Assembly (NCBI GenBank): GCA_040383445.1 | Contig: JBEIDM010000001.1 | Span: 1-38,544 of the forward strand | DNA length: 38,544 nt | Direction: 5' to 3' | From: Candidatus Methylopumilus sp. | GTDB taxonomy: Bacteria; Pseudomonadota; Gammaproteobacteria; Burkholderiales; Methylophilaceae | Shown here: in pieces, positions 2,110 to 37,190 of the stretch | Layout: the number at the start of each line of letters is the position of its first letter | How positions within the stretch are numbered: the first letter of the stretch is position 1 | Made by a program: the position numbers and the translations under genes | The notes under the pieces: model-generated | Databases searched by the model: none | Told to the model about the DNA's origin: nothing | What the model saw: the letters and a program-made list of their open reading frames with translations, nothing else

Positions 2110-5100
2110 TATGCAGCTTCCTTCTTAGCAGCAGCGGCCAACTCTGTGAGGGCACGCTTATATTCATTTGGCATCACTTTAACAAACTTAGTTCTCATGT
2201 TCGCCCAATCTGCACGAATTGCTTGAGCACGTTCACTGCCTGTGTAGGCAATGTGTTTATCAATGAGTGCTAATAATGTTGTTTCGTCGGCTTGATTTAA
2301 GTGGTTAACGCTACCAGGGGTAAACGTTGAAGCTGGCTCAACTTTTTCGAGTGAAACCATGCCCATGTTGCAACGTTTGTTGAACATGCCATCTTCGTCA
2401 TACACGTAAGCCACACCGCCAGACATACCAGCAGCAAAGTTAAGGCCAGTTTGACCTAGCACCACTACTGTACCGCCAGTCATGTATTCACAACCGTGGT
2501 TACCAACGCCTTCGACGACTGCACTTGCACCTGAATTACGGACACAGAAACGTTCGCCTGCGACGCCGCGGAAATAACTTTCGCCTGTGGTTGCGCCGAA
2601 CATCACGGTATTACCAGCAATCACGTTTTCATGTGCGATACCGCGGAAAGCTTTAGGTGGTTTAATCACAATACGACCGCCACACAAGCCTTTACCAACA
2701 TAGTCGTTACCCTCGCCAGTCAGTTCTATGCTGATGCCATGTGCCAAGAATGCGGCAAAGCTTTGACCGGCCGTGCCAGTTAACTTAATGTTAATCGTTT
2801 CGTCTGGTAAACCTGCATTGCCATAAATGCTTGCCACTTGATTAGACAACATGGTGCCGCATGTACGGTTAGTGTTGGTAATCGGCAAGTCAATATTGAC
2901 CTTCTCGCCTTTTTCTAAGGCTGGCTTAGCAAGCGCGATAAGCTGATTATCCAGTGCGTGTTTTAAACCATGATCTTGGTTTTCATTGTGATGCAATGAA
3001 ACTTCTTCACCCACTTTAGGCTGGTGGAATATCTTAGTGAAATCCAAGCCCGAAGCTTTCCAGTGATCCAAGCCTTTTTGCATATCCAATAAATCAGCAC
3101 GGCCGATTAAATCATTAAATTTGCGTATGCCCATTTCAGCCATCAGTTCACGCACTTCTTCAGCAATAAAGAAGAAGTAATTCACAACGTGCTCTGGTTG
3201 ACCAGTAAAGCGTTTACGCAATTCAGGATCTTGTGTTGCCACACCTACTGGACAAGTGTTGAGGTGGCATTTACGCATCATGATGCAGCCTTCAACAACA
3301 AGCGGCGCTGTTGCAAAACCAAACTCATCGGCACCTAGTAATGCACCAATCAGTACGTCACGACCTGTTTTCATTTGGCCGTCAACTTGCAAGATCACAC
3401 GACCACGCAATTGGTTAAGCACTAAAGTTTGCTGTGTTTCAGCCAAACCAAGTTCCCACGGCGTACCCGCATGTTTGATCGATGAAATTGGTGAAGCACC
3501 AGTACCACCGTCATGACCAGCCACAACAATGTGATCTGATTTTGCTTTTGCTACACCAGCAGCAACAGTGCCAATACCCGTTTCTGATACCAATTTCACA
3601 GAGATTTCAGCTTTTGGATTTGCATTTTTCAAATCGTGAATCAATTGTGCTAAATCTTCGATAGAGTAAATATCGTGATGCGGCGGCGGTGAAATTAAAC
3701 CTACGCCAGGTACTGAGAAACGTAACTGTGCAATATATGGGCTGACTTTGTGGCCTGGTAATTGACCGCCTTCACCAGGTTTTGCACCTTGTGCCATTTT
3801 GATTTGGATTTGGTCTGCGTTTGCTAAATATTCAGCAGTCACACCGAAGCGACCTGAGGCCACTTGCTTAATTTTTGAGCGCATTGAATCGCCTGCTTTA
3901 AGCGCAATGTCTGTTTCAATTAAACTCGCACCAATCACTTCAGCCATTGAGCTGGCTTTGGCTACAGGAATGAAACGTTTAGGATCTTCGCCGCCTTCGC
4001 CAGTATTTGATTTGCCGCCAATGCGGTTCATCGCAATCGCTAATGTTGCATGAGCCTCAGTTGAAATAGAACCTAAAGACATCGCGCCTGTAGCAAAACG
4101 TTTAACAATTTCTTTTGCTGGTTCAACTTCATCTAAAGGCACAGGTGCGCCAGCAGATTTAATGTCGAACAAGCTACGCAAAGTCATATGACGACGACTT
4201 TGATCGTTGATGAGTTTTGCGTATTCTTTGTAAGTGCTTGCTTCGCCTGTACGGGTTGCAAGTTGTAATTTAGAAATGGATTCAGGTGTCCACATGTGTT
4301 CTTCGCCACGCACACGGAAAGCATATTCACCACCCGCTTCAAGTGCATTCGCAAGCACTGGATCTTCACCAAACGCATTGTTGTGCATATTGATCGCTTC
4401 TTGAGCAACTTCGCTTAAGCCAATGCCTTCAATGTGCGTTGCAGTACCTGTGAAGTATTTTTCAATAAATGCTGTGTTGAGACCAATTGCTTCAAAGATT
4501 TGTGCGCCGCAATAAGATTGGTAAGTTGAAATACCCATCTTAGACATGACTTTATGTAAGCCTTTGCCGATCGCCTTCACAAATTTCTTATTGCTTTCGT
4601 AAGTGTCGTTACCCACTAAATCAGCAATAGTTTGGAATGCCAACCAAGGACAAACAGCTTCTGCGCCATAGCCGGCAAGCAATGCAAAATGATGCACTTC
4701 GCGTGCAGAACCAGTGTCTACTACCAAGCCAGTGCTGGTGCGGAGGCCGGCACGCACTAATGATTGATGCGTTGCTGAAGTCGCAAGTAACGCAGGAATT
4801 GCTAAGCGATCCTTACTGACATTGCGATCCGACAAGATTAAAACATTGAAGCCATCGTGGACTGCTTTATTAGCGGCAACACAAACGGATTCAACAGCTG
4901 CTTCCATGCCACGTTTACCTTGCTCGGCAGGGTAAGTAATGTCCAATGTCAGTGTGCGATATTGGTTTTGTGTAAAGGTGCTAATCGCTTTAAGTTGTTC
5001 TAATTCTTCAAGCATTAAAACAGGCTGACTTGCCTCTAAACGCATTGGAGGATTGGTTTCATCAATACCAAGTAAATTAGGTTTTGGACCAATAAATGTC

Positions 5101-6737
5101 ACCAATGACATCACTAATTCTTCACGAATTGGATCGATAGGTGGGTTAGTCACTTGCGCAAATAATTGCTTGAAGTAGTGATATAAAACTTTTGGTTTGT
5201 TTGATAACACTGAAAGTGCTGCATCATTACCCATAGAGCCAGATGCTTCTTCGCCGCTTGCAATCATAGGTTGCATCACAAACTTGATATCTTCTTGTGT
5301 GTAGCCAAATGCTTGTTGGGTATCTAACAAGCTAGCAGCCATTTCAACTTTTGCATCAACACTTGGTAAGTCGCTTAAGTGATAGCGAGACTTCTTCAAC
5401 CATTCTTGGTAAGGCTTCGCTTTTGCTAATTCTTGTTTAACTTCTGCATCATCAATAATGCGACCTTGCTCTAGGTTAATGAGCAACATTTTGCCTGGCT
5501 GAAGACGCCATTTTTTTACGATTTTTTCTTCAGGGAAAGTAAGCACGCCCATTTCCGAAGCCATCATCACATGGTCATCGTCAGTCACTAAATAGCGCGC
5601 TGGACGCAAACCGTTACGGTCTAATGTTGCGCCAATGGTTGTGCCGTCTGTAAATGCAACCGCTGCTGGACCATCCCATGGTTCCATCAATGCTGCATGA
5701 TATTCATAGAATGCACGTCTGTCGTCATCCATGAGTTTGCTAGCATTTTCGTTAGACCATGCCTCTGGAATTAGCATCATCATTGCGTGTGGTAATGAAT
5801 ATCCGCCAGCGACAAGCAACTCAAGTGCATTATCAAATGCTGCAGAGTCAGACTGACCTTCAACAATCAATGGCCATAATTTTTCTAGGTCTTCACCCAT
5901 TAACGCTGAACGCATTGATTCATGACGTGCCGCCATCCAATTGATATTGCCTTGCACGGTATTGATTTCACCGTTGTGCGCAATCATGCGGAATGGATGT
6001 GCTAAATCCCAAGCAGGGAAAGTGTTGGTAGAGAAACGTTGGTGCACAAGTGCTAGTGCAGAAACCATTGTTTCATCTTGCAAATCTTTGTAATAAACAC
6101 CCACTTCATTGGCAAGCAACATGCCTTTGTAAATGATGGTTTTTGAAGACAATGAAGGGAAATAGAACTGTGCTGAATCGTCTAATTTAAGGGCACGAAC
6201 TTCATGTTCGATACGTTTACGAATCACAAATAATTTACGCTCGAAAGCATTTTGATCTGCTAGCTTTTCATTGCGACCAATAAATACTTGGCGCATTTCT
6301 GGTTCAACATCTTTAGCCGCTTGAGCGATATTGCTATTGTCGCGAGGAACATCGCGCCAGCCGAGTAAGATTTGACCTTCTTCGTGAATGATACGAGCAA
6401 CAATAGACTCACAGGCTTCACGGCCGTTTTTAGTCTGAGGTAAGAATGCGGTACCGCAAGCGTATTCGCCTAGGGCTGGAAGCTTAATTCCAAGTTTCGT
6501 CGCTTCTTTGCGCATGAACGCATCAGGCATTTGAATCAAAATACCTGCGCCATCACCCAGTTTTGGGTCATAACCTGTTGCGCCACGATGCGTTAGGTTT
6601 GCAAGAATCTGCAAGCCTTGTTGCACAATCTTGTGGCTCTTGTTTCCCTTAATGTGGGCAACAAAACCTAAACCACAGGCATCACGCTCGTTAGAAGGAC
6701 TATATAAACCTTGTTGCTCTGGCATTCCGCTGCCCAT
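2109..6737 (-). CDS. gltB: Glutamate synthase large (alpha) subunit
   Basis: 1542 aa; [10 protein letters not shown]-terminal nucleophile Cys, [42 protein letters not shown] [3Fe-4S] motif. Confidence 0.98.
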
Positions 6738-6743
6738 TCCTAT

Positions 6744-6835
6744 CCCTCGTCATACTGATAAAAACGGACACCAAATCGAGGGTTTTGGTGTCCGCTAACC
6801 CCGTCTATGCTTGATTGTTGTGCCAACCAATCAGC
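6744..6835 (-). promoter_or_regulatory. Structured gltB 5' leader: terminator-like hairpin with U5 tract and an anti-SD loop
   Basis: Perfect 11-bp stem 6765-6775/6784-6794 followed on the mRNA strand by UUUUU (6760-6764); loop CCCUCG is complementary to CGAGGG at 6744-6749; second hairpin at 6809-6835. Confidence 0.55.
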
Positions 6836-7025
6836 TCACAGGAATATGTAAATTAAGCCGCTAAATTAATAAGTCATTTCAATTCTTGGTAAATCAATTG
6901 AAAAATATCGACATATTTTGCGGTGAAACCTTGTAATTCTACTGTCATTAGCCTTTAGCTTCAAGCTTTGCGCTTAAATCTATCTCTATTTTTAGTCTTC
7001 AAGATATGCCCCAGATTTTACTGAT

Positions 7026-8311
7026 TTAGGCTTTTAATTTTGCAAAGCTCTTTTTGGCAGCTGCAATCGTCGCTGCAATGTCTTCTTCAGTATGTGCTGC
7101 AGACACAAATCCAGCTTCAAACGCTGATGGAGCAAGGTAAATGCCTTCGTCTAACATGAAATGAAAGAAGTGATTAAACGCCTCTTTATCTGTCTTCATA
7201 ATCTCATCAAAGCTGGTTGGAACGGTTTTGCTGAAATAAAGGCCAAACATGCCGCCCACTGATTGCGTGCAAAAATCAATGCCAGCTTCTTTGGCGGCAT
7301 CGCTTAAGCCTTGCATTAGTTTGTGAGTGCTTGCGCTTAATTTGTCATGAAAGCCAGGCGCTTGAATCAGTTCTAATGTTTTCATGCCAGCAGCAACCGC
7401 CACTGGATTGCCTGACAATGTGCCCGCTTGGTATACCGGCCCAACAGGGCTAAGCATTGCATGATGTCAGCACGGCCGCCAAAAGCACCTACTGGCAAGC
7501 CACCACCTATTACTTTGCCTAAGGTCGTCATGTCAGGTTTTACATTGTAAAGCGCTTGAGCACCGCCTAGAGCAACGCGGAAGCCTGTCATAACTTCATC
7601 AAAAATTAATACTGCACCATGCTTAGTACATTCTTCACGTAAAGTTTCCAAGAATCCTTTAATCGGCGTGACGAGGTTCATATTGCCAGCCACCGCTTCA
7701 ACAATAATGCAGGCAATTTCATCGCCAATTTCGTTGAATAAAGTTTTAACACCTTCGATATCGTTGTAATTCAGAGTGAGTGTGTGGGCTGCAACTTCTG
7801 GTGGTACGCCAGCTGAGCTTGGTGTGCCAAATGTCAGCAATCCTGAACCTGCCTTCACTAAAAGTGCATCAGCGTGGCCGTGGTAACAACCTTCAAATTT
7901 GACGATCTTGCTGCGACCTGTAAAACCACGCGCAACACGAATCGCGCTCATGGTGGCTTCAGTGCCCGAGCTGACAAGACGAACTTGTTCCATGCTTGGT
8001 ACCAGTTTTTGGATCATTTCTGCCATGTCTAATTCACGTGCAGTTGGTGCGCCAAAAGATAAACTATTACCAGCGACTTCACGCACGGTGTTAATCACCT
8101 CTGGATGCGCGTGGCCTAAAATCATTGGTCCCCATGAGCCAATATAGTCGATATATTGCTTGTCATCCTCATCCCATAATTTAGAGCCTAGACCGCGTTT
8201 AAAAAATACTGGCGTACCGCCTACAGAGCGGAAAGCGCGCACTGGTGAATTAACACCACCAGGGATGAGTTTTTGAGATTTTTCGAAAAGGCTTTGGTTT
8301 CTTGAAGTCAT
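7026..8311 (-). CDS. hemL: Glutamate-1-semialdehyde 2,1-aminomutase, split by a 1-nt frameshift near 7447-7449 (probable sequencing error)
   Basis: [20 protein letters not shown] and [13 protein letters not shown] in ORF 7382-8311; [15 protein letters not shown] in ORF 7026-7457; adding one C to a C-run restores ...CLAPVGPVYQ... Confidence 0.93.
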
Positions 8312-25337: not shown

Positions 25338-25372
25338 AATAAAAAAGCCCGCAATCAGCGGGCTTTTTTATT
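25338..25372. terminator. Bidirectional terminator between ssb and the TolC-family gene
   Basis: AATAAAAAAGCCCGC-AATCA-GCGGGCTTTTTTATT; overlaps the TolC-gene stop codon. Confidence 0.9.
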
Positions 25373-27167
25373 TAAAGTCTAAATTGCTATAACCCAGCAC
25401 CGTGCCGGTAGCATAAGCAGTATCAATGATTGAAACTTGATAATCGCTGACGGCACGCACTTCTTTAATTTGCGCTTCACCAAGTCTTGTCAGCGTTTCT
25501 AAGACTTCGGTCATTGTTCTTATACCTTCGTTAAATTGCTTGAGTTCGGCCTCGTAGTTGAGGCCAGCAATCACAACTTGTTGTCTTGCAGCGAGAATGC
25601 GCTGCCAGTTATTTTCAACTTGGTCGAGCGCATCATAAATTTCTTTTTTAACAGTTAATGTTTGTAGCTGTTTGGTCGCAAGTCTTTTGTTTCTTTGTTG
25701 GACGGCATATTCAAGGCGTGCTTTATTTGCCTCATTAGTGAATGGCATTTCAAAACTAAGGCCAATAGACCAGTCGTTAAATTGTCCGTTGAGAATGTTT
25801 TGATAACTATTACCAAAGTTATTGGCGGTAGATGACAATGCGCCATATTGATAATCTAAACTAAATAAAGGAAGTGTTTGATTTTCATAATATTGAATAT
25901 TAACGGCATCCGCAGCTAATTTAAGCTCTAGTTCGAGAAGCTCTAATCTTCCATTGAGTGCTTCGTTCAATAGTTTCTCACGATCAAATTCGTAACGGAC
26001 TAAATTTGGTTCGGTGATGGTATTGATGATGTTGGGTTGTCGATCTTCTTTTTACATGTCATTCATAAAAAAACGAAGTTGACGCTGTGCAAGTTTCAGA
26101 TTGGTCTCTGCAATAATCAAAGCTTCCATTCTGTCGGCCACACCGATTTCAGCTCTGTTGAGTTCAATAGCGGCTGTAAGTCCCTCGCTTACCCTACGTT
26201 TCACCATGTTCAGATTTTGGATGGCGAGTTGGTATTGTTGTTTTCTAACGTCTAGTTGCGCCCAGGCTTCGTATAAGCTCCAATAAGATTTATCGGTGAG
26301 TGCGATAATTCGAATGGCTTGAAGTTTTGTTTTAAGTTGAACCGCTTGTTTATCAAACTCGGCAACGCGGATGCTTGCTTCGTTTACATCTCGGCCAGCG
26401 TTACGAAGTAGAGGCTGACTGATTGAGAAACGTAATGCACTTCGATATTCTTCAGTATTAAATGCCCCACCATTTTTTTTACTTTCTAATGGTGAGCTTA
26501 GCGTCACTGAACCACCTGTTCGGAGTGGAACCCTAACGCCTGCGGCAATATCGACTGAGCGAATATTCTGTTCTAGCGTGGTGAGTTTGGCCTCTTGCCC
26601 ATTGATTGAATCTTTGGATGTAAAGGAGACGTTATCTTCTGATATTTGAGGAGTATCTCGGTTGGTTTGTCTTGCATAAGCAAAAATGATGTTATCAAAC
26701 TTCGCTTGTTCTTGCCTGAGCGTTGCTCCTGCAATCGCTGGGTCAATTCTAGCAACCTCAATGCTGAGATTATTTTTAAGTGCTTTCGTTCTAATATCTG
26801 CAATGCTAAATGCATTTGCTAGGTTTTTATCGAACACTGATTCTGCCAGCGAGTTTTTATCTGTCTCTTCTATCGCTTGCTTTAAATCTATTCTTATTTT
26901 TTGTGTTTGTTTTTCTTTTTTTTGTTGGTACTCATCTAAGGATTTTTTTAAATCTGTTGCTGGCCCTTTAGAATAATCTTCAGGCTTAAAACCATTAGTC
27001 TGTTCAAGTGCTGCATTGGCTTTTTGTTGTGCGATTTTTGTAGCACTTTGTTCTACAGTTTCAGCGTGACTTAACACATGACTAAAAAATAAAGCTGCGC
27101 AGACTAAGGGAAATAAAGGGCTAATGTAGGGATTAGCTGTCAGTTTTTTAACGTATGACTTCATCAT
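25368..27167 (-). pseudogene. TolC-family outer membrane factor (599 codons) interrupted by one in-frame TAA at 26052-26054 (real nonsense mutation or base error)
   Basis: ORFs 26052-27167 and 25368-25970 share a frame and are joined by an open 27-codon spacer (KEDRQPNIINTITEPNLVRYEFDREKL); signal peptide, ISQPLLRNAG and helical OEP-like repeats. Confidence 0.8.
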
Positions 27168-28480
27168 TTTTTGTTTTGTGTAATGCCTTTAGCATGTTCA
27201 GAGTCGACAGGAATTCTAGGCGGGAAGCCGTTAAATATCCGCCATAACTCGTAACCAATGCTGACGTTTTGAAGCATGATCCAGCCTTTAGTACTTATGC
27301 CTTGTCTTAAAAAGCGTGCTTGTGGCCAAGTTTGCTCTTCAGGGTCTGGTATGACCATGACTCTAAAATTACCTGTACCGTTATCAACAGGATCTACAAA
27401 TGCTACGCGGCCACCAAATGTTCCGACACGCACTTTTGCCCAGCCTGGGACTTGTAATGCTGGCCATCCTTCAAACTCCAATCGGACCTTACTATTTTTA
27501 GAAATCAGGGGCGCATCTCGGCCATCGACCATAAGCTCAACCGCAGGTGCGTTGGTGCTTGGCTGGATCACTAAAAGAGGTTGGCCTTGAGTGACGATTT
27601 GTGATGAGGAATTAAATGGCAAGCGAAACACAACGCCATCGCGTGGCGCCAGCACCTTTTGGGTATCTTGACGTGATAGTGAAATTTCGGAGCTGGTCAG
27701 CGAGTTTTCAGAATCCATGACTTCCGCATAAATCTTATTGATCACAGCAGTAGTCGATTCTAAATCAGCTTGAGTATCGGACTGAATTTGACGGATGTCA
27801 GCACTTGCCGACTTTGTTTCAGCAAGTGCTGATTGATGCTGTGCTTGAGCACTGCCAAAGTTTCGCTTGGCAACTTCATAGTCGCGTTCCGCGACCTCTG
27901 CATCACGCTTTGAAACCAATCCATCTTCAAGCAAGCGTTGTAAACGTTTTACTTGAAATTGCGCAGTATCTAAAGTTGCTTGAGCTGAACTCATGGCTTC
28001 AGATGCCGCGCGAATTTTTTGTTCAGCAACGTCTCGTCTAAATTGGGCTGCAGATATTTTGGCATCTCTGGCTATTCTGAGATTTTTTTGTTGCATTTGA
28101 TAAGACTTCAGTTCGTCTTTTTTTGCCTGTAATCTGCTTGATAAATTATCGCGTTGTGATTCGATGCGTGTTTTAAACTTTGGGTCAATGTCACGCATTT
28201 CTAATAACAAATCTCCGGCTTTGACTGTCGACGCCTCTTGAACATGCCACTGTGCAATCATTCCCTGAATTGGCGCATCAATGGTTTGCACCCTTTCAAA
28301 AGGAGCAAAAGCAGTCACTTTACCAAGTGCAGTAATATTTTGTTGCCAAGGTAAAAACAAGGCAAAAACAGGAATAATAAAGAATACCCAAACTAAAATT
28401 TTAAAAAATCGATTTACGATTTCAGGCGTTTCACCAAGTCGAAGTGTTGGCTCGAAAAGATGTTTTTTGTTTTTATGCAT
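27164..28480 (-). CDS. HlyD-family membrane fusion (periplasmic adaptor) protein
   Basis: Single N-terminal TM helix, lipoyl-like halves (IDAPIQG..VKAGDLLL; VLAPRDGVV..VTQGQPLL), long coiled coil; ATG 28480 overlaps the ABC stop. Confidence 0.9.
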   Translation of the reverse strand: MHKNKKHLFEPTLRLGETPEIVNRFFKILVWVFFIIPVFALFLPWQQNITALGKVTAFAPFERVQTIDAPIQGMIAQWHVQEASTVKAGDLLLEMRDIDPKFKTRIESQRDNLSSRLQAKKDELKSYQMQQKNLRIARDAKISAAQFRRDVAEQKIRAASEAMSSAQATLDTAQFQVKRLQRLLEDGLVSKRDAEVAERDYEVAKRNFGSAQAQHQSALAETKSASADIRQIQSDTQADLESTTAVINKIYAEVMDSENSLTSSEISLSRQDTQKVLAPRDGVVFRLPFNSSSQIVTQGQPLLVIQPSTNAPAVELMVDGRDAPLISKNSKVRLEFEGWPALQVPGWAKVRVGTFGGRVAFVDPVDNGTGNFRVMVIPDPEEQTWPQARFLRQGISTKGWIMLQNVSIGYELWRIFNGFPPRIPVDSEHAKGITQNKK

Positions 28481-30116
28481 TTTGTTGCTCAACTTGATTT
28501 AGGTTTACTGTTTTGTCAAAACGTTTTGCAATGTGCTCAAAGCGAGTAGTGACTATCAACATCCATTCTTCCTGATGTTGTTTAAACATATTCATGACAG
28601 CGTCTAACTCTACTTCGTTAAAGCCATCAAGCAGCCCATCAATAATCATGATTCCAGGGCTTGCAATGCTCGCTCTGGAAATCATTAAAAGCTTCAATTG
28701 ACTACTTGATAGCGGTGAGCCTGAGGCCATAATAGGGGTTTCGATTCCAGCTGAGAAACGACTGAAGTCATCTGCCAAGCCAAGTTCTTTAATCATCGTA
28801 TTGATTTTTGTCAGTGGGATTTCACGGCCAAGGCAAATGTTTTCTAATATAGTGCCATGGGCAATTTCAATGTTTTCTGCAAGCCCCATCAAGTTTCTTA
28901 CGGCGTCATTGTTAATCTGTCTAAGATCGATTTGATTAATAGAAATATGCCCAGCACTTGGAGTACGTAGTTTGGCGATTAGTTTTATTAGGGTCGATTT
29001 GCCTGAACCTGGTTCTCCAAGAATAGCTAAGCTTTCTCCTTTTTTTAAATCAAAATTAATATTTTTGAGAGGTTGAATGTATCGGTTGTAGGCAAAATCG
29101 ACACCCACTACTTTTAGTGAGTCTAGTTCAAGTTGGTCTACTCCATTGTTGCCACTATGTTCTTGTGGAATGTCTTCAAGGACTCCAATTTTGTCCAAAG
29201 CAGCAAGTAGATCATAAAAGTAATCAAGTTTATTAACCAAGCGAACGAGGGCGGTTAACACTCCAAAAATAATCAGCTCTGCTGCGACAAACTGACCGAG
29301 ATTAATTTCGCCTTTGATAACTAAGCCACCACCAAGCGCTAAAAGCCCGGTTCCCCCAATTGCATAAATTAAGGCAACACTGATGTTTTGCCAAAGCAAA
29401 ATATTGAAATGCTTAGTGCGTGTTTGAATGTAATGATTGATATGTTGGTGCGTCTGTTTTGCTGCGCGCTCCTCACCTTGATAAAACTTAAAGGCAAATA
29501 TATTTTTTGCAATATTTTCTAACCAAGAAGCCATTTCAAATTTAGCTTTAGATTCTTTGATGGCAGTTTCAGTGGCATGACGGCCGACAGAGCGGACAAT
29601 AAAGAACAAAAAGCCAATGATGACAAAAATAAACAAAGAGAAAAATGCGCTATAAAAGATCAGGATTAGACTGCCGATCAGTATTTGCAGTAAGGAAGTT
29701 AAACCCATCGTTAAAAGGGTTGCGGCGGATTTTTGTACTGTGCTGACATCAAAAAAGCGATTGATCAGTTCAACCGGATTTTCACGGTCATAAAGACTAA
29801 TTTCAACACCTCTTGCATTTTGTGCTGTTTGAATTGCGGTGCGAATAAATATTCTGCGTTGAATGAGTTCAACAATGTAGGACTCAAATACGTACAAGGC
29901 CCCTGATAGCAAGAGGAGTAAGAAAAGAATAAGGCTGACAATAAAAAGTGGCTGAAGTACAGAACCCATGGTGACGATGTTGACTAATGCCTGGACAGAA
30001 ACTGGGGTGGCTATACTGATTAATCCATAACCAAAAATAAGTACTGGCAAGATTTTTAAGTCGTGCTTTTCAAGCTTTAGTAGATTAATTAATCTTGATA
30101 TTGGGCTGAGTGTCAT
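28473..30116 (-). CDS. Type I secretion-like ABC exporter (TMD+NBD, no peptidase domain) with a degenerate nucleotide-binding domain
   Basis: Multi-TM N-terminal domain (GEINLGQFVAAELII); Walker A GEPGSGKS; LSSSQ, IMIIDG and IVTTR in place of LSGGQ, hhhhDE and the H-loop. Confidence 0.88.
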   Translation of the reverse strand: MTLSPISRLINLLKLEKHDLKILPVLIFGYGLISIATPVSVQALVNIVTMGSVLQPLFIVSLILFLLLLLSGALYVFESYIVELIQRRIFIRTAIQTAQNARGVEISLYDRENPVELINRFFDVSTVQKSAATLLTMGLTSLLQILIGSLILIFYSAFFSLFIFVIIGFLFFIVRSVGRHATETAIKESKAKFEMASWLENIAKNIFAFKFYQGEERAAKQTHQHINHYIQTRTKHFNILLWQNISVALIYAIGGTGLLALGGGLVIKGEINLGQFVAAELIIFGVLTALVRLVNKLDYFYDLLAALDKIGVLEDIPQEHSGNNGVDQLELDSLKVVGVDFAYNRYIQPLKNINFDLKKGESLAILGEPGSGKSTLIKLIAKLRTPSAGHISINQIDLRQINNDAVRNLMGLAENIEIAHGTILENICLGREIPLTKINTMIKELGLADDFSRFSAGIETPIMASGSPLSSSQLKLLMISRASIASPGIMIIDGLLDGFNEVELDAVMNMFKQHQEEWMLIVTTRFEHIAKRFDKTVNLNQVEQQNA

Positions 30117-30144
30117 CGTGTTTCGTTTCTTTGATGGTACTTAT

Positions 30145-31059
30145 TTAATTTTTAGATGATAAATAGTTATTTAAAATTTCATCGTCTTCACGTTCAAACA
30201 ATTTGTTAAATAAATCAGATTCAATATGTCTTTCCATATGAACCGCATAAAAATGTTCAAATAAGTTAGGTATCGTGCAGTACTCCTGCAATGATCCATT
30301 TTTTATTTCATCTTGCACGACAACTTTTGGCATGAGTGCGATACATGCTGAATCTCGAATTAATAAGCGCAACGCTGGCATATCGTTAATTTCCGCCATG
30401 ATTTCGTAATTTAAACTATTTTCATCGCAATAGGTATCAAACATTGCGCGCACCTCTGTGCCATGACCTGGTAAAAGAAGCTGATGTTTTTCTAAATCTA
30501 ATTTGATATCAAATTCTTCGTCTTCAGGGCGCGGTTGTCCTATGATACTTAATTGTTGTTTGGCAATTTCTCGCGTTTTAAAAGGATTATTCACGCTAAT
30601 GATTGGTCTATGATTGCTTAGCATGATATCGAGTTGGTATTTTGCTAATTTATTAAGCAATTCAGTTTGATTGCCAGAGTCTATGACAAGCTCAATATCC
30701 TGATGCGCTAATAGTGGGCGAATGAAGTTTTCAACAAAGTTTCTGGATAATGACGAAACAATGCCAACTCTAAATGTTTTTTTATTTTTTTTGTTATGTC
30801 TTAGGACGCTGGTGAGTTCATTGCCTAAGCTAAATATCTTGTTAGCGTATTCAAGCGTCACTTGCCCTGCTTCAGTCAGCTTTAATGCTCTGCCTTCACG
30901 ATCAAATAACTCAGTATCTAAATGATGTTCAAGCTTTTTGAGTTGGGTAGATAGCGCTGATTGAGATACTAACAAAATCCGAGCTGCCTTCACGAGATTG
31001 CCTTCGTTCGCAATAACCCAGAAATAATAAAGATGGTTGTAATTTAGTTTTTGCATCAT
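30145..31059 (-). CDS. LysR-type transcriptional regulator, NhaR-like subfamily
   Basis: LNYNHLYYFW..EG..AA..L.VSQSALSTQLKKLE wHTH, LTEAG; 304 aa. Confidence 0.92.
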   Translation of the reverse strand: MMQKLNYNHLYYFWVIANEGNLVKAARILLVSQSALSTQLKKLEHHLDTELFDREGRALKLTEAGQVTLEYANKIFSLGNELTSVLRHNKKNKKTFRVGIVSSLSRNFVENFIRPLLAHQDIELVIDSGNQTELLNKLAKYQLDIMLSNHRPIISVNNPFKTREIAKQQLSIIGQPRPEDEEFDIKLDLEKHQLLLPGHGTEVRAMFDTYCDENSLNYEIMAEINDMPALRLLIRDSACIALMPKVVVQDEIKNGSLQEYCTIPNLFEHFYAVHMERHIESDLFNKLFEREDDEILNNYLSSKN

Positions 31060-31065
31060 TTGTTT

Positions 31066-31111
31066 ATTCTCTTTAAAAGAATTAAAAATATTTAATATCT
31101 ATTTTACAGAA
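31066..31111. promoter_or_regulatory. Two tandem LysR boxes (T-N11-A) in the divergent lysR/sbtA intergenic region
   Basis: ATTCT-N7-AGAAT (31066-31082) and TCT-N7-AGA (31098-31110), cores 30 bp apart. Confidence 0.7.
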
Positions 31112-31175
31112 CATTCAGAATATAAGACAATAAAAAAGTTCATGATGTTTTAAAAAAATTGAAGAAATATAAAAA

Positions 31176-32150
31176 ATGGAATTAAATAATTTATTAACGC
31201 CCTCAGTCTTGTTCTTTGGATTAGGTCTTATGGCGCAATTAATTCGCTCAGATTTAAAGCTACCGACAGAACTCACAAAATCGATTACGATTTATTTACT
31301 CATTAGTATTGGTTTGCATGGGGGTAGGGAATTGGCACATACCTATTTCTCAGATGCGATTCCTTCGATTGGGGTGGCTTTTCTTTTAGGCTTCACCATC
31401 CCCTTAATGGCTTACTTGGTGATACGTAAACTTGGAAAAGTAGATGCATTTAATGCTGTAGCTATTGCCACACATTATGGCTCTGTCAGTGCTGGTACCT
31501 TTTTAACTGCCTTAGCATTTTTAGAGATACACAAAGTCAGTTTTGAGTCTTATCCAATCATTATGTTGGCCATCATGGAAACTCCAGCAATTTTAATTGG
31601 ATTGCTTATGGTATTTTCGATTAGATCTAAAACAACAACTGAAGAATTCATGGACAAGCAGGGTATGAAGGGTATCGTCAGAGAGGCATTTACTAATGGC
31701 AGTATTTTGCTCCTGTTGGGCGGCATGTTAATTGGATACTCAGGCACAGATAAAAGTATGGTGAATATTCAACCTTTCTTTGATCAGCTATTTTATGGGG
31801 TGCTTTGTATCTTTTTATTAGCCATGGGTATGGAAGCAGGTAAAAAGCTCAATGACTTTAAACAAGCTGGATTGTTTCTAATTTGTTTTGGAATTGGAAT
31901 GCCTATATTGGGCGGTGCAATTGGAGTCACTCTAGCGACTTTCGTTTTACACTTTTCAATAGGCGGTGCAACCTTGGTGGGTGTTTTAGCCGCGAGTGCA
32001 TCTTATATCGCGGTGCCACCGGTGATGCGCATGGCGGTGCCGGAAGCAAATCCATCGATATATCTCACATTAAGTTTAGGCGTCACATTTCCATTTAATG
32101 TTGTGATCGGTATTCCTTTGTATTATCACTTAGCTCAAGCATTGGCTTAG
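31176..32150 (+). CDS. sbtA: Sodium-dependent bicarbonate transporter family permease (SbtA-like)
   Basis: About 10 TM segments; RSDLKLP, YLLISIGLHGG, HYGSVSAGTF, ASASYIAVP and SLGVTFPFNVVIGIPLY family motifs. Confidence 0.92.
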   Translation: MELNNLLTPSVLFFGLGLMAQLIRSDLKLPTELTKSITIYLLISIGLHGGRELAHTYFSDAIPSIGVAFLLGFTIPLMAYLVIRKLGKVDAFNAVAIATHYGSVSAGTFLTALAFLEIHKVSFESYPIIMLAIMETPAILIGLLMVFSIRSKTTTEEFMDKQGMKGIVREAFTNGSILLLLGGMLIGYSGTDKSMVNIQPFFDQLFYGVLCIFLLAMGMEAGKKLNDFKQAGLFLICFGIGMPILGGAIGVTLATFVLHFSIGGATLVGVLAASASYIAVPPVMRMAVPEANPSIYLTLSLGVTFPFNVVIGIPLYYHLAQALA

Positions 32151-32160
32151 AGGAGATAAA

Positions 32161-32454
32161 ATGAAAAAAGTAAAACGCGTTGAAATTGTGGTTGAAGCTT
32201 TAGAAAAGCAGGCCATTATTGACTTATTGAAGGCTAACCAATTAGAACATTACACCTTATACAAACATGTTGCAGGCCATGGTGAGCGGGGGATGCGAGA
32301 TGATCAGGTGTTTGGTGATAAGTTTGAAAACGTAGCCTTTGTATTAGCCTGCCCTGAAGAAAGTATTACCAAGCTGATTGAATCAATTCGGCCTGTCCTC
32401 AAGAAATTTGGCGGCATTTGTTTAGTTTCAGATGCCCAATGGGTCATTCATTAG
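32161..32454 (+). CDS. sbtB: P-II-like signal protein SbtB
   Basis: 97 aa; KRVEIVVE, YT...AGHGERG T-loop entry, GGICLVSDA; directly after sbtA with SD GAGGAG. Confidence 0.88.
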   Translation: MKKVKRVEIVVEALEKQAIIDLLKANQLEHYTLYKHVAGHGERGMRDDQVFGDKFENVAFVLACPEESITKLIESIRPVLKKFGGICLVSDAQWVIH

Positions 32455-33984: not shown

Positions 33985-35427
33985 TTAAGCACCAAGTTTC
34001 TTTTTCAGAATCTCGTTCACTTGCGCTGGGTTGGCTTTGCCTTTTGAAGCTTTCATCGCTTGACCAACTAATGCGTTGAACGCCTTTTCTTTGCCGGCTT
34101 TGAACTCTTCAACCATAGCAGCGTTCGCTGCAAGCACTTCATCTACAATCGCTTCAATCGCGCCAGTATCTGAAACTTGTTTTAGGCCTTTGCTTTCGAT
34201 AATGCTGTCGGCATCGCCTTCACCAGACCACATTGCTTCAAATACTTGTTTAGCGGCATTGTTAGAAATCGTGCCGTCCTGAATGCGTTTAATCAAACTT
34301 GCTAACGCGCTTGGCGAAATGGGCGATTCAGAAATTTCTTTGTCGTCAGCATTGAGTTTTGCAGAAACGCTACCCATGACCCAGTTGGCTGCAAGTTTTG
34401 CATCACAACCAGCATCAACAGTTGCTACGAAATAGTCCGCAGTTGCACGTGAGCTAGTGAGTGCGTTTGCATCGTAATGTGCTAAACCATATTGAGCTTC
34501 AAAACGTGCTTTCATTGCTTCAGGCAATTCAGGCATCTCGGCTTTAACTGTGCTGATGTCGTTTTCTGAAATGGCGAGTGGCAATAAGTCAGGATCTGGG
34601 AAGTAGCGGTAATCATTTGCTTCTTCTTTGCTGCGCATGGCACGTGTTTCGCCAGTATCTGGGTTAAATAGAACAGTAGCTTGTTGAATCGTACCGCCAT
34701 CTTCCAACGTTTCGATTTGCCATTGTGTTTCGTACTCAATCGCTTGTTGCATGAACTTAAATGAGTTTAAGTTTTTAATTTCGCGGCGTGTGCCAAGTTT
34801 GTCAGAGCCTTTTGGGCGGACTGAAACGTTGACGTCACAGCGGAAACTGCCTTCTTGCATGTTGCCATCGCAAATGCCTATCCATTGCACTAAATCATGT
34901 AGTTTTTTAGCGTAAGCGACAGCTTCAGCTGCTGAGCGCATATCTGGTTCTGTCACGATTTCGAGCAGTGGTGTACCAGCACGGTTTAAGTCGATGCCTG
35001 ACATGCCTTCTTGCGCGCCGTGCACAGACTTGCCCGCATCTTCTTCTAAGTGAGCGCGGGTAATGTTGATGACTTTTTCGTAAGCCTTATCACCAGTGCC
35101 AACTTGAATCATCATGCTACCTTTACCGACGACTGGTAGTTCGTATTGGCTGATTTGATAGCCTTTAGGTAGGTCAGGATAAAAGTAATTCTTACGTGCG
35201 AATACTGAGCGTGGTGCAATATCAGCGTTTACCGCCAAGCCGAATTTAATCGCGCATTTCACTGCTTCTCTATTTAAAACAGGGAGCACGCCAGGCAGAG
35301 CTAAGCTCACTACACAGGCTTGTGTATTAGGCTCTGAACCGAATTCAGTCGAAGCACCGCTAAAAATTTTAGTTTTGGTTTGTAGCTGGGTATGTGTTTC
35401 CAGCCCAATGACGACTTCCCATTCCAT
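33985..35427 (-). CDS. gatB: Asp/Glu-tRNA amidotransferase subunit B
   Basis: [33 protein letters not shown] and [10 protein letters not shown] motifs. Confidence 0.98.
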
Positions 35428-36895
35428 TATTCAATTCCTTCTGGCATTTGTGTGTGCCAATCTGTGACTTTTTGATAAGTATGGCCTGCATTAAGCATGC
35501 GTGCTTCATCAAAATAATTACCGATAATTTGTAAACCGACTGGTAGTTTTTTACCATCTGCGCTTGGCGCGAATCCAGCTGGAATGCTCATGCCTGGCAA
35601 GCCTGCTAAGTTGACCGCAATGGTGAAGATGTCTTGTAGATACATCGAAACTGGGTCATCTGCTTTTTCACCTGCTTTAAAGGCAGTTGATGGTGCAGTC
35701 GGTCCCATGATGATGTCGCATTGTTTGAATGCATTTTCAAAATCTTGAGCAATTAGGCGGCGTATTTGTTGTGCTTTTAAATAGTAAGCATCGTAATAGC
35801 CAGCGCTTAGTACATAAGTGCCAATTAAAATACGACGTTTAACTTCTGCACCAAACCTTCTGCACGGCTCTTGCAGTACATGTCCATTAAATCACCATAC
35901 TCTTTGGCGCGGTGACCATAGCGAACACCATCAAAGCGAGATAAGTTACTTGAGGCTTCAGCTGGTGCAAGGACGTAATAAACAGGAATAGACAGCATAG
36001 TGTTCGGTAAGCTGATATCAACAATCTCGGCACCAAGTTTTTTATACTCGGTAATCGCTTCTTGAACTACTTTGGCAACGTCTGCCCCTAAGCCTTCAGC
36101 AAAATATTCTATTGGTAAGCCCACTTTTAAGCCAGCTAGCGGCTTGTTCAGGTCACGCGTGTAGTCTTCTTTTTCACGGTTTAAGCTGGTGGAGTCACGT
36201 TTATCGAACCCTGTGATGACGTTCATCATCAGCGCCATATCTTCACACGATTTTGCCATTGGGCCGGACTGGTCTAGGGATGATGCAAATGCAATCATGC
36301 CAAAACGAGAAGCAAGGCCGTAGGTTGGTTTTAAGCCTGAGAGCCCACACAATGAAGCTGGTTGGCGAATTGATCCGCCAGTGTCAGTGCCTGTTGCTGC
36401 GGCACACAAGCGTGCCGCAACCGCAGCTGCGCTACCACCTGAGCTACCGCCAGGAACGCGACTTCTGTCCCATGGGTTTTGTACTTTGCCAAAATAGCTG
36501 GTCTCGTTAGATGAACCCATCGCGAATTCATCCATATTGGTTTTGCCTAAATTGACAGCACCTACGCCATCAAAGCGCTCAATAATGTCTGCATCGTACG
36601 GACCAATAAATGTTTCGAGCATTTTTGATCCGCAAGTCGTGCGCCAGCCTTTCGCAACAAAAATATCTTTTTGAGCAATTGGTAAGCCAGTCAGCGCTGA
36701 AGCCTTGCCAGCGGCGAACATGGCATCTGCATGTTTTGCTTGCGCAAGTGTTTTGTCTTTATCTAGCGTAATGAAGGCGTTGATTTCAGGATTAAGCCTG
36801 TCAATGCGATTCAAATACTCTTGCGTGAGTTCAACGCTAGAAATTTCTTTGGCTTGGAGCATCGCGCCAAGTTGTTTTAAGCTTTTATTAATCAT
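35427..36895 (-). CDS. gatA: Asp/Glu-tRNA amidotransferase subunit A, split by a 1-nt frameshift near 35853-35855 (probable sequencing error)
   Basis: [37 protein letters not shown]; adding one T restores [30 protein letters not shown] and joins the 35427-35708 ORF; start MINKSL at 36895. Confidence 0.94.
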
Positions 36896-36902
36896 TTGGG
36901 TG

Positions 36903-37190
36903 CTATTCGATGACTTTAGGAACGAGGTACAAACCATCTTCAACCGCTGGAGCGATTGATTGGAACAGTTCACGTTGGTTGGTTTCTGTGACGACGTCAT
37001 CACGCAGACGTTGAGTTACGTCTTGTGAATGCGACATGGGAACAATGCCGTTGGTGTCTACCGCTTGCATTTGTTCGATGAGGCCAAGAATACCTGTGAG
37101 CTTAGTAAGTGTTGCATCCGCTTCAGCATCGCTGACTTCAATGCGTGCCAAATGGGCAATACGTTTAATATCTGCACTGTTAAGTGACAT
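36903..37190 (-). CDS. gatC: Asp/Glu-tRNA amidotransferase subunit C
   Basis: [17 protein letters not shown]...LRDD...YLVPKVIE; first gene of gatCAB. Confidence 0.95.

What the first reader, a model, noticed from the sequence alone, without database searches (positions are those of the whole stretch)
25368..32454. Candidate undescribed inorganic-carbon module: LysR plus a cargo-less T1SS-like tripartite system divergently paired with sbtA-sbtB
Seen: lysR, ABC, HlyD and TolC genes are tightly linked on the minus strand (28-nt gap, then 8- and 4-nt overlaps), back-to-back with sbtA-sbtB across 116 bp holding two LysR boxes. The block is AT-richer than its flanks, sits between housekeeping ssb and xth, and encodes no RTX or peptide cargo, carbonic anhydrase or RuBisCO. 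Established: SbtA is a Na+/HCO3- symporter regulated by the PII-like SbtB in cyanobacteria; ABC/MFP/OMF trios span both membranes. Inference: one LysR co-regulates bicarbonate uptake and a trans-envelope conduit under low CO2 or high pH. The conduit could export a distant substrate (e.g. a carbonic anhydrase), expel a counter-ion, or act as a gated channel. I recall similar trios near DabAB/SulP/carbonic anhydrase loci but cannot verify that here, and I know of no characterised function.
Basis: partly seen in the sequence, partly recalled or inferred. Interest (0 to 1): 0.8.

Follow-up and report, generated by a model that had tools for sequence, protein, structure and literature searches.

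The report
Carbon-uptake cassette with motor-dead exporter
A freshwater methylotroph carries a 7-kb add-on block joining a predicted bicarbonate importer and its regulator to a three-part envelope-spanning export machine whose ATP-splitting residues are missing; relatives of this machine sit beside three different carbon-uptake systems, so it likely helps cells gather inorganic carbon without burning ATP.

Summary
Observation confirmed: lysR-ABC-HlyD-TolC (minus strand) lies back-to-back with sbtA-sbtB, with the gaps and overlaps as stated. The TolC stop codon is not seen in four other runs, which read a sense codon there. Four of five congeners join ssb directly to xth, so the block moves as one unit.

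Not in the finding as given: the ABC protein is a pseudo-ATPase. None of 116 family members keeps Walker A, catalytic Glu and His together, yet the gene is under purifying selection and its membrane domain carries an invariant Glu280. It fails type I secretion membership.

The carbon link is real but partial. Related trios sit beside SbtAB or DabBA in Methylophilaceae (5 of 33 genomes), beside DabBA in a distant family (18 of 30, four gene orders), and beside a Nitrosomonas carboxysome operon. Most Methylophilaceae copies and most distant ones have no such neighbour, and none of 46 LysR-less copies tested carries the LysR box.

Best reading: a likely ion-gradient-driven small-solute conduit, repeatedly recruited to carbon-uptake loci. 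Substrate and direction are unknown. No description was found in ten literature searches.

The parts
25341..25369 (.). Inverted repeat with A and T tails between ssb and the OMF gene; likely bidirectional terminator and left boundary of the block
   Evidence: Seen in the sequence; not flagged by the terminator scan; homology to congeners ends at about 25373
25368..27167 (-). TolC-like outer-membrane factor, 599 codons, with a long N-terminal extension; one in-frame stop at 26052-26054 in this assembly only
   Evidence: Pfam OEP in both halves; one reading frame; sense codon in 4 of 4 runs
27164..28480 (-). HlyD-like periplasmic adaptor, 438 aa, with family-specific C-terminal motifs
   Evidence: Pfam HlyD_3; TIGR01843 78.7 bits, below its cut-off of 208.65; invariant columns
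28473..30116 (-). Type IV ABC exporter half-transporter, 547 aa. Degenerate NBD: Walker A kept; no Q-loop Gln, no LSGGQ, no catalytic Glu, no His switch. Invariant Glu280 in TM6
   Evidence: AlphaFold model pLDDT 91.9; TM-score 0.89-0.90 to PCAT1 and HlyB
30145..31059 (-). NhaR-like LysR regulator; orthologues are divergent from sbtAB or dabBA across Methylophilaceae
   Evidence: NhaR model 160.8 bits, below its cut-off of 219; contexts
31067..31081 (.). Conserved dyad TTC-N9-GAA, predicted primary LysR site
   Evidence: 12 of 14 spacers; held-out spacers score 15-34 against a background maximum of 6.8
31097..31111 (.). Second, imperfect LysR site 30 bp from the first, predicted activation site for sbtAB
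31176..32150 (+). SbtA-family predicted Na+/bicarbonate symporter
   Evidence: Pfam Sbt_1 E 2.4e-113; hit to Synechocystis SbtA 7cye; 2 of 4 reported bicarbonate-contacting residues kept
32161..32454 (+). PII-like SbtB-type protein, 97 aa, with no C-terminal cysteine pair
   Evidence: Pfam P-II; nearest solved structure is the PII-like 5d4n; translation

Best explanation
The block is an accessory inorganic-carbon cassette in which a LysR protein likely switches on a predicted Na+/bicarbonate importer (SbtA-SbtB), and an ABC/HlyD/TolC trio lacking ATP-splitting residues likely forms an ion-gradient-driven small-solute conduit across both membranes that would support carbon uptake. Shown: the gene anatomy, movement of the block as a unit, loss of catalytic motifs across the family, purifying selection, invariant polar membrane residues, and repeated linkage to SbtAB, DabBA and a carboxysome operon. 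Predicted: a homodimeric membrane domain with Glu280 at the dimer interface. Inferred: the dead NBD is a scaffold or nucleotide-sensing gate; Glu280 couples H+ or Na+; the cargo is a small ion or solute rather than a protein. I commit to export of the ionic or alkaline load that goes with carbon accumulation (about 60:40 over an inward bicarbonate route). The trio has a more general envelope or pH role and is recruited to carbon-uptake loci rather than confined to them.
For: Unit: 4 of 5 congeners have an empty ssb-xth site matching the block ends. Dead motor: among 116 aligned ABCs Walker A is intact in 60, Walker-B Asp-Glu in 4, a signature-like motif in 3, and none has Walker A, Asp-Glu and His together. 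Identity is higher in the membrane domain than in the NBD in 5 of 5 genomes, the reverse of an MsbA-like control in 5 of 5. dN/dS is 0.05-0.22 for the NBD and 0.04-0.10 for the membrane domain in the 5 of 7 unsaturated pairs. Glu280, Tyr155 and Tyr301 are present in 116 of 116. Membrane-domain dimer score 0.73, best control 0.00, contacts agree at least 92%, pLDDT at least 78; the mark was reached by 20 of 30 solved self-pairs and 1 of 23 single chains; the pass may reflect likeness to solved exporters. Precedent: the LmrA membrane domain acts as a secondary-active transporter through a TM6 glutamate (PMC6155054, passages). Linkage: family f52 has the trio in 30 of 81 genomes; 24 of 30 have DabA against 16 of 51; 18 of 30 within 10 kb; four gene orders. 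Methylophilaceae show both the divergent and the co-operonic layout with sbtAB, and the co-operonic layout with dabBA. The two lineages fall in different major clades (27% ABC and 33% HlyD identity) and use non-orthologous LysRs. The Nitrosomonas sp. ANs5 trio follows cbbR, opposite cbbL-cbbS-csoS2-csoSCA. Phylum of G522: DabA in 12 of 21 trio genomes against 6 of 100.
Against: Most copies have no carbon-uptake neighbour: 28 of 33 Methylophilaceae genomes, 14 of 15 class-wide hits, 17 of 18 distant loci, 6 of 6 plasmid regions read out of 21 hits, and 20 of 20 loci fetched from the G522 phylum, apart from a DabA fragment in one. 15 of 33 trio genomes had neither SbtA nor DabA detected. There is no significant co-occurrence with SbtA alone (p=0.22). 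0 of 46 LysR-less trios carry the box. Most SbtA and DabA loci lack the trio, so it is not needed for uptake. In the window's layout the trio lies on the lysR arm, which in typical LysR systems is autorepressed rather than induced (general knowledge). Kin are not independent, and no negative-control gene family was run for the co-occurrence counts. Glu280 was not aligned to LmrA E314. No substrate evidence exists.
Confidence: 0.48

Rival explanations
1. The trio is a general envelope exporter (lipid, glycolipid or metabolite, working without ATP hydrolysis). Its position next to carbon-uptake genes reflects shared regulation by pH or salt stress, or hitch-hiking on one mobile cassette, not a role in carbon uptake.
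For: Most copies stand alone in housekeeping contexts. LysR plus trio persists after loss of the transporter in L102, L008, L009 and L110. No box lies upstream of unlinked trios.
Against: Linkage recurs with SbtAB, a second SbtA type with DUF6671 (L103), DabBA in two clades and a carboxysome operon, with different LysRs and reshuffled gene orders. That is hard to get from one hitch-hiking event.
Confidence: 0.27
2. It is a type I secretion system for a protein encoded elsewhere (for example an extracellular carbonic anhydrase), driven by ATP binding alone, by the proton-motive force, or by a catalytic ABC partner in trans.
For: The fold is closest to PCAT1 and HlyB; the gene order is HlyB-HlyD-TolC-like; Walker A is kept in the Methylophilaceae clade; some relatives have longer ABCs with an N-terminal extension (L087 and most G522-phylum loci).
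Against: No RTX-repeat ORF and no closer partner half-transporter were found in the 83%-complete genome. Both the Walker-B/His side and the signature side are degenerate, unlike one-site-degenerate heterodimers such as TmrAB (PMC8277102, passage). Walker A is lost in 56 of 116. The genome's beta-CA shows no obvious export feature on inspection.
Confidence: 0.15
3. The system is a decaying relic: the ABC has lost function and the TolC gene is a pseudogene.
For: In-frame stop in the OMF gene in this assembly; degenerate NBD; patchy distribution (0 of 8 congeners).
Against: 4 of 4 runs read a sense codon; dN/dS is far below 1; the same degeneracy is kept across phyla with invariant membrane residues.
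Confidence: 0.03

Closest known systems
Type I secretion and peptide-export ABC systems: HlyB-HlyD-TolC (PDB 8dck, 7sgr), PCAT1 (4ry2, 8vox), ComA
   Same: Three-gene ABC, adaptor and outer-membrane-factor layout; type IV exporter fold, TM-score 0.89-0.90 at 20-22% identity
   Different: No catalytic Glu, His switch, Q-loop Gln or LSGGQ; no C39 or C39-like domain in this protein; no cargo gene; below every type I secretion NCBIfam cut-off; membrane domain more conserved than the NBD
LmrA of Lactococcus lactis (ABC exporter with a secondary-active membrane domain; PMC6155054, passages read)
   Same: Homodimeric type IV exporter; ion-coupled transport that depends on a TM6 glutamate facing amide residues; ATP binding rather than hydrolysis can start ion flux
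   Different: LmrA has a working ATPase and no adaptor or TolC; residue equivalence to Glu280 was not tested
Cyanobacterial SbtA-SbtB (PDB 7cye family; PMC8352866, passages read)
   Same: Sbt_1 transporter followed by a PII-like gene; TM4 and TM9 crossover segments align
   Different: Host is a methylotroph; only S114 and S324 of the four reported bicarbonate contacts are kept (Y140 and S327 are not); the PII-like partner lacks the C-terminal disulfide; regulated by an NhaR-like LysR
DAB (DabAB) inorganic-carbon pumps of Halothiobacillus neapolitanus (10.1101/476713, passages read)
   Same: DabBA replaces SbtAB under the same LysR in Methylophilaceae relatives and neighbours the trio in family f52
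   Different: The preprint's main text has no mention of TolC or efflux; no Dab was found in this genome
E. coli NhaR (Na+-responsive LysR)
   Same: Best NCBIfam hit for the regulator, E 3.9e-47
   Different: Below the family cut-off (160.8 against 219); linked to carbon transporters, not nhaA

Membership tests
Type I secretion system (HlyB/PrtD/PCAT type) | Linked ABC, HlyD-family adaptor and TolC-family genes | tested here: met
Type I secretion system (HlyB/PrtD/PCAT type) | Type IV ABC exporter fold | tested here: met
   AlphaFold model and Foldseek, TM-score 0.89-0.90
Type I secretion system (HlyB/PrtD/PCAT type) | Catalytically complete NBD (Q-loop, LSGGQ, Walker-B Glu, His switch) | tested here: not met
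   Only Walker A and the Walker-B Asp are kept; 0 of 116 relatives complete
Type I secretion system (HlyB/PrtD/PCAT type) | Score above curated family cut-offs (TIGR01846, TIGR01842, TIGR03375, TIGR01843) | tested here: not met
   134/725, 99.5/510, 132/693 and 79/209 bits
Type I secretion system (HlyB/PrtD/PCAT type) | Protein cargo with RTX repeats or a double-glycine leader | tested here: inconclusive
   None in the block; no RTX-repeat ORF in an 83%-complete genome; peptide leaders were not searched
Heterodimeric ABC exporters with one degenerate site (TmrAB, TM287/288) | A partner half-transporter supplying a consensus site | tested here: inconclusive
   No second ABC in the operon in the loci examined; other genome exporters are far more distant; a partner in trans is not excluded
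SbtA Na+/bicarbonate symporters | Pfam Sbt_1 over full length with an adjacent PII-like gene | tested here: met
SbtA Na+/bicarbonate symporters | Bicarbonate-contacting residues of Synechocystis SbtA (S114, Y140, S324, S327) | tested here: inconclusive
   2 of 4 kept, read off the alignment with residues
SbtA Na+/bicarbonate symporters | Measured Na+-dependent bicarbonate uptake | not testable with these tools
   Needs an assay
NhaR | Score above the NF008284 cut-off | tested here: not met
   160.8 against 219

The most novel reading that the evidence does not exclude
This is a member of an unrecognised, multi-phylum class of trans-envelope transporters: an ABC-fold protein that has become a pure ion-coupled carrier or gated channel, docked to HlyD and TolC, and serving as a missing outer-envelope component of bacterial CO2/bicarbonate acquisition shared by SbtA-, Dab- and carboxysome-based systems, for example a direct bicarbonate inlet through TolC.
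Probability: 0.25. Interest if true: 0.92.

Novelty: new variant of a known kind. Interest (0 to 1): 0.72.

Why it matters
Two open questions become testable. First, can an ABC-fold exporter work in nature with no ATP hydrolysis at all? LmrA showed ion-coupled transport by an engineered truncation; this family would be a natural, conserved case joined to a TolC tunnel. Second, known bacterial CO2-concentrating parts act at the inner membrane or in the cytoplasm; a trans-envelope part recruited beside three unrelated uptake systems would be a new component, relevant to carbon economy in freshwater methylotrophs and to CO2-concentration engineering. The same layout exists in a cultured non-pathogen, Methylotenera mobilis 13 (L023), where sbtA, sbtB and the trio lie head-to-tail on one strand.

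Tried and rejected
Plain T-N11-A counting as evidence for LysR boxes: rejected as chance-level in this AT-rich spacer and replaced by footprinting.

OMF pseudogene reading: rejected.

Expression: RNA runs are held only as contigs. They cover parts of the block in four further runs and all of it in X15, but cannot show transcription, strand or level, so they were not used as evidence.

Sigma-70 and terminator scan: no more sites than in shuffles.

Regulon membership of unlinked trios: not found.

Alphaproteobacteria class search found only its centre genome (1 of 251, six candidates scored per genome); treated as low-sensitivity, not as absence. Nitrosomonadaceae: 1 of 81, so the carboxysome case is a single event.

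DUF6671 was not found in this genome, but the control rang nowhere. The ESM Atlas gave only generic HlyD clusters.

The full-library profile search never ran, so the family's range is sampled only through.

Literature searches for a description of the trio or its carbon link gave no relevant hit by listing or abstract; one search found the LmrA precedent. Subscription papers and all supplements were unseen, and transcriptome or fitness tables there could mention these genes.
Full report
OBSERVATION. The host is a Methylophilaceae genome by its closest named relatives; the assembly is 1.2 Mb and 83% complete. The block is the most AT-rich 7-kb stretch tested (0.393; 0 of 128 windows as low). 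The OMF gene carries one in-frame stop, but contigs of 4 of 4 public runs from 3 studies read a sense codon. The window also holds a split hemL-like and a split gatA-like gene, and two runs show an inserted base in the latter, which fits assembly noise. In 4 of 5 congeners searched, ssb and xth are joined within 6-82 bp, and the missing part matches the finding's ends. The block is therefore gained or lost as one unit. 0 of 8 congeners in the family sample have the trio; three carry a different SbtA (about 40% identical) with a CbbR-like LysR elsewhere.

THE REGULATOR. The LysR is NhaR-like but below that family's cut-off. Its orthologue is divergent from sbtAB or dabBA in the trio-linked loci and in 7 of 16 further SbtA or DabA loci fetched. 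A dyad at 31067-31081 is present in 12 of 14 orthologous spacers (1-6% in shuffles), with a second site about 30 bp on. A matrix from 9 spacers scored the 7 held-out transporter spacers at 15-34, against a maximum of 6.8 in 300 random genome windows; the two transporter-less spacers L008 and L009 scored 15.2 and 5.6. The two boxes are real, and the LysR is by context a carbon-uptake regulator. 0 of 46 trios without this LysR had the box in the 400 bp around their ABC start (best 12.4).

THE ABC IS A PSEUDO-ATPASE. Alignment to PCAT1 shows Walker A intact, but no Q-loop Gln, a degenerate signature, Gly in place of the catalytic Glu and no His switch. I aligned 116 ABC proteins: the window's, plus the best hit per locus from L001-L125, dropping those under 480 aa or under 120 bits and two duplicate loci. 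Walker A is intact in 60, Asp-Glu in 4, a signature-like motif in 3, a His in the switch region in 13, and none has Walker A, Asp-Glu and His together. Identity to the window protein is higher in the membrane domain than in the NBD in 5 of 5 test genomes (0.28-0.48 against 0.18-0.33). The genome's MsbA-like exporter shows the opposite in the same 5 (0.25-0.35 against 0.50-0.60; best hits, orthology not checked). Both domains are under purifying selection in the 5 of 7 pairs that were not saturated. The model (pLDDT 91.9, pTM 0.84) is a complete type IV exporter nearest to PCAT1, TM287/288, TmrAB and HlyB. Invariant or near-invariant membrane residues include Pro38, Gln42, Asn46, Asn119, Gln144, Tyr155, Lys192, Gln275, Glu280 and Tyr301; PCAT1 has Asn at the Glu280 position. 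The membrane domain folds as a homodimer with Glu280 among the interface residues: score 0.73, best control 0.00, contact agreement at least 92%, pLDDT at least 78; the mark was reached by 20 of 30 solved self-pairs and 1 of 23 single chains; the pass may come from likeness to solved exporters.

IS THE CARBON LINK REAL? Methylophilaceae, 121 genomes: trio in 33, Sbt_1 in 27, DabA in 19. Five of 33 trios lie within 10 kb of a transporter (four SbtA, one DabA). Either transporter occurs in 18 of 33 trio genomes against 24 of 88 others (p=0.009); DabA alone 12 of 33 against 7 of 88 (p=0.0004); SbtA alone 10 of 33 against 17 of 88 (p=0.22). Of the 62 close loci, 8 have sbtAB, 2 dabA, 1 a carboxysome operon, and 30 place the trio directly after amtB; many contigs are short. 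Layouts seen: sbtBA | lysR-trio (window, L003-L006, L125); lysR | sbtAB-trio (L010, L023, L032, L035); lysR | dabBA-trio (L045; L047 partial); and trio converging on DUF6671-sbtA | cbbR-like (L103).

In a class-wide sample 15 of 399 other genomes had the trio and one was carbon-linked (165 ORFs scanned, short ORFs and most trio genes left out). I then sampled that genome's family, f52, chosen because of this hit. The trio is in 30 of 81 genomes and DabA in 40 of 81; 24 of 30 against 16 of 51; 18 of 30 lie within 10 kb, and the other six with DabA have it on another contig. Eight linked loci examined show four gene orders, including both the divergent and the co-operonic layout. The six DabA-less trios had no SbtA, SulP or beta-CA hit nearby. 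The f52 and Methylophilaceae trios are 27% (ABC) and 33% (HlyD) identical, sit in different major clades of a midpoint-rooted FastTree (99 rows; near-duplicate and short rows left out), and use LysRs that match only in the DNA-binding domain. Nitrosomonas sp. ANs5 has the trio after cbbR, opposite cbbL-cbbS-csoS2-csoSCA, the only case in 81 genomes of its family. In the phylum of G522, DabA occurs in 12 of 21 trio genomes against 6 of 100, but is adjacent in only one, plus a fragment in another. Six of 21 plasmid hits were read, from Bacteroidota and Sphingomonadales, and none had a carbon-uptake gene. All p-values overstate because kin are not independent, and no control family was run. Conclusion: repeated, apparently independent recruitment to carbon-uptake loci, but not an obligatory partnership.

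MECHANISM. SbtA is predicted to import bicarbonate with Na+, gated by the PII-like protein as in cyanobacteria (PMC8352866, passages). Only 2 of 4 reported bicarbonate contacts are kept, so substrate identity rests on family membership and on its interchangeability with DabBA under the same LysR. A methylotroph needs bicarbonate for anaplerotic and biosynthetic carboxylations (general knowledge); the genome also has a SulP plus beta-CA operon. For the trio, protein secretion by the standard cycle is unlikely without hydrolysis. A relaxed NBD with an invariant membrane glutamate is the pattern expected of a secondary carrier or gated channel. LmrA's membrane domain works this way through E314 in TM6 (PMC6155054, passages); equivalence of the two glutamates was not tested. 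I put 0.48 on an ion-driven small-solute conduit that supports carbon uptake, 0.27 on a general envelope exporter that only shares regulation or mobility, 0.15 on secretion of a distant protein, 0.03 on decay, and leave the rest unassigned. Direction and substrate are inference only.

COMPARISON AND NOVELTY. It looks like a type I secretion system but fails two defining tests (complete NBD, family cut-offs), so I do not file it as one. Ten literature searches found no description of this trio or its carbon link. What I saw of papers: passages of 10.1101/476713, PMC6155054, PMC8277102 (first 300,000 characters held), PMC8352866 and PMC13187645; a term search with no hits in 10.1101/2023.08.10.552651; listings and abstract starts for the rest; no supplements. 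Earlier AI notes of this scan report a similar dead-ATPase trio in other phyla, and two mention carbon-uptake neighbours. They are unchecked leads, not support; I had noted the degenerate NBD before reading them. Verdict: a new variant of a known architecture, interest 0.72.

Noticed in passing
window 7026-8311 (-) and 35427-37003 (-): The hemL-like aminotransferase and the gatA-like amidase are each split into two ORFs; two runs show an inserted base behind 35852, so the second is probably an assembly error.
   Followed up: partly
L128 (G000:C12) 3697-8117 (-): A second carbon-uptake locus in the same genome: a SulP-like gene, beta-carbonic anhydrase, then what looks on inspection like a TonB-dependent receptor, next to the isc cluster.
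   Followed up: partly
L097, L103, L118-L124, L173, L002: DUF6671 (PF20376) recurs beside DabBA and beside SbtA; no paper in the library names it. Candidate uncharacterised carbon-uptake accessory protein.
   Followed up: partly
L160-L164, L168, L103: Methylophilaceae have a second SbtA type (37-40% identical to the window's) divergent from a CbbR-like LysR, with no SbtB hit beside it.
   Followed up: partly
L007-L062 (30 loci): The trio lies directly after gcw_chp-glnK-amtB, another PII plus channel pair, mostly behind a terminator-like hairpin; in L045 a lysR|dabBA cassette sits between amtB and the trio.
   Followed up: partly
L118, L120, L121, L122, L124: A small PII-like gene lies between dabA and DUF6671 with no SbtA nearby; its target is unknown.
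   Followed up: no
window 26052-27167 (-): The OMF has a charged N-terminal extension of about 120 residues before the first OEP domain and is about 590 aa in Methylophilaceae against about 470-490 aa in distant relatives; the HlyD hairpin is likewise about 92 residues longer.
   Followed up: no
L100, L101: In two genomes of family f61 the ABC and HlyD genes occur without an adjacent TolC gene, upstream of gatCAB.
   Followed up: no
L001, L103, L099: An aquaporin-family gene lies near the trio in L001 and L103, and a bestrophin gene near it in L099.
   Followed up: no
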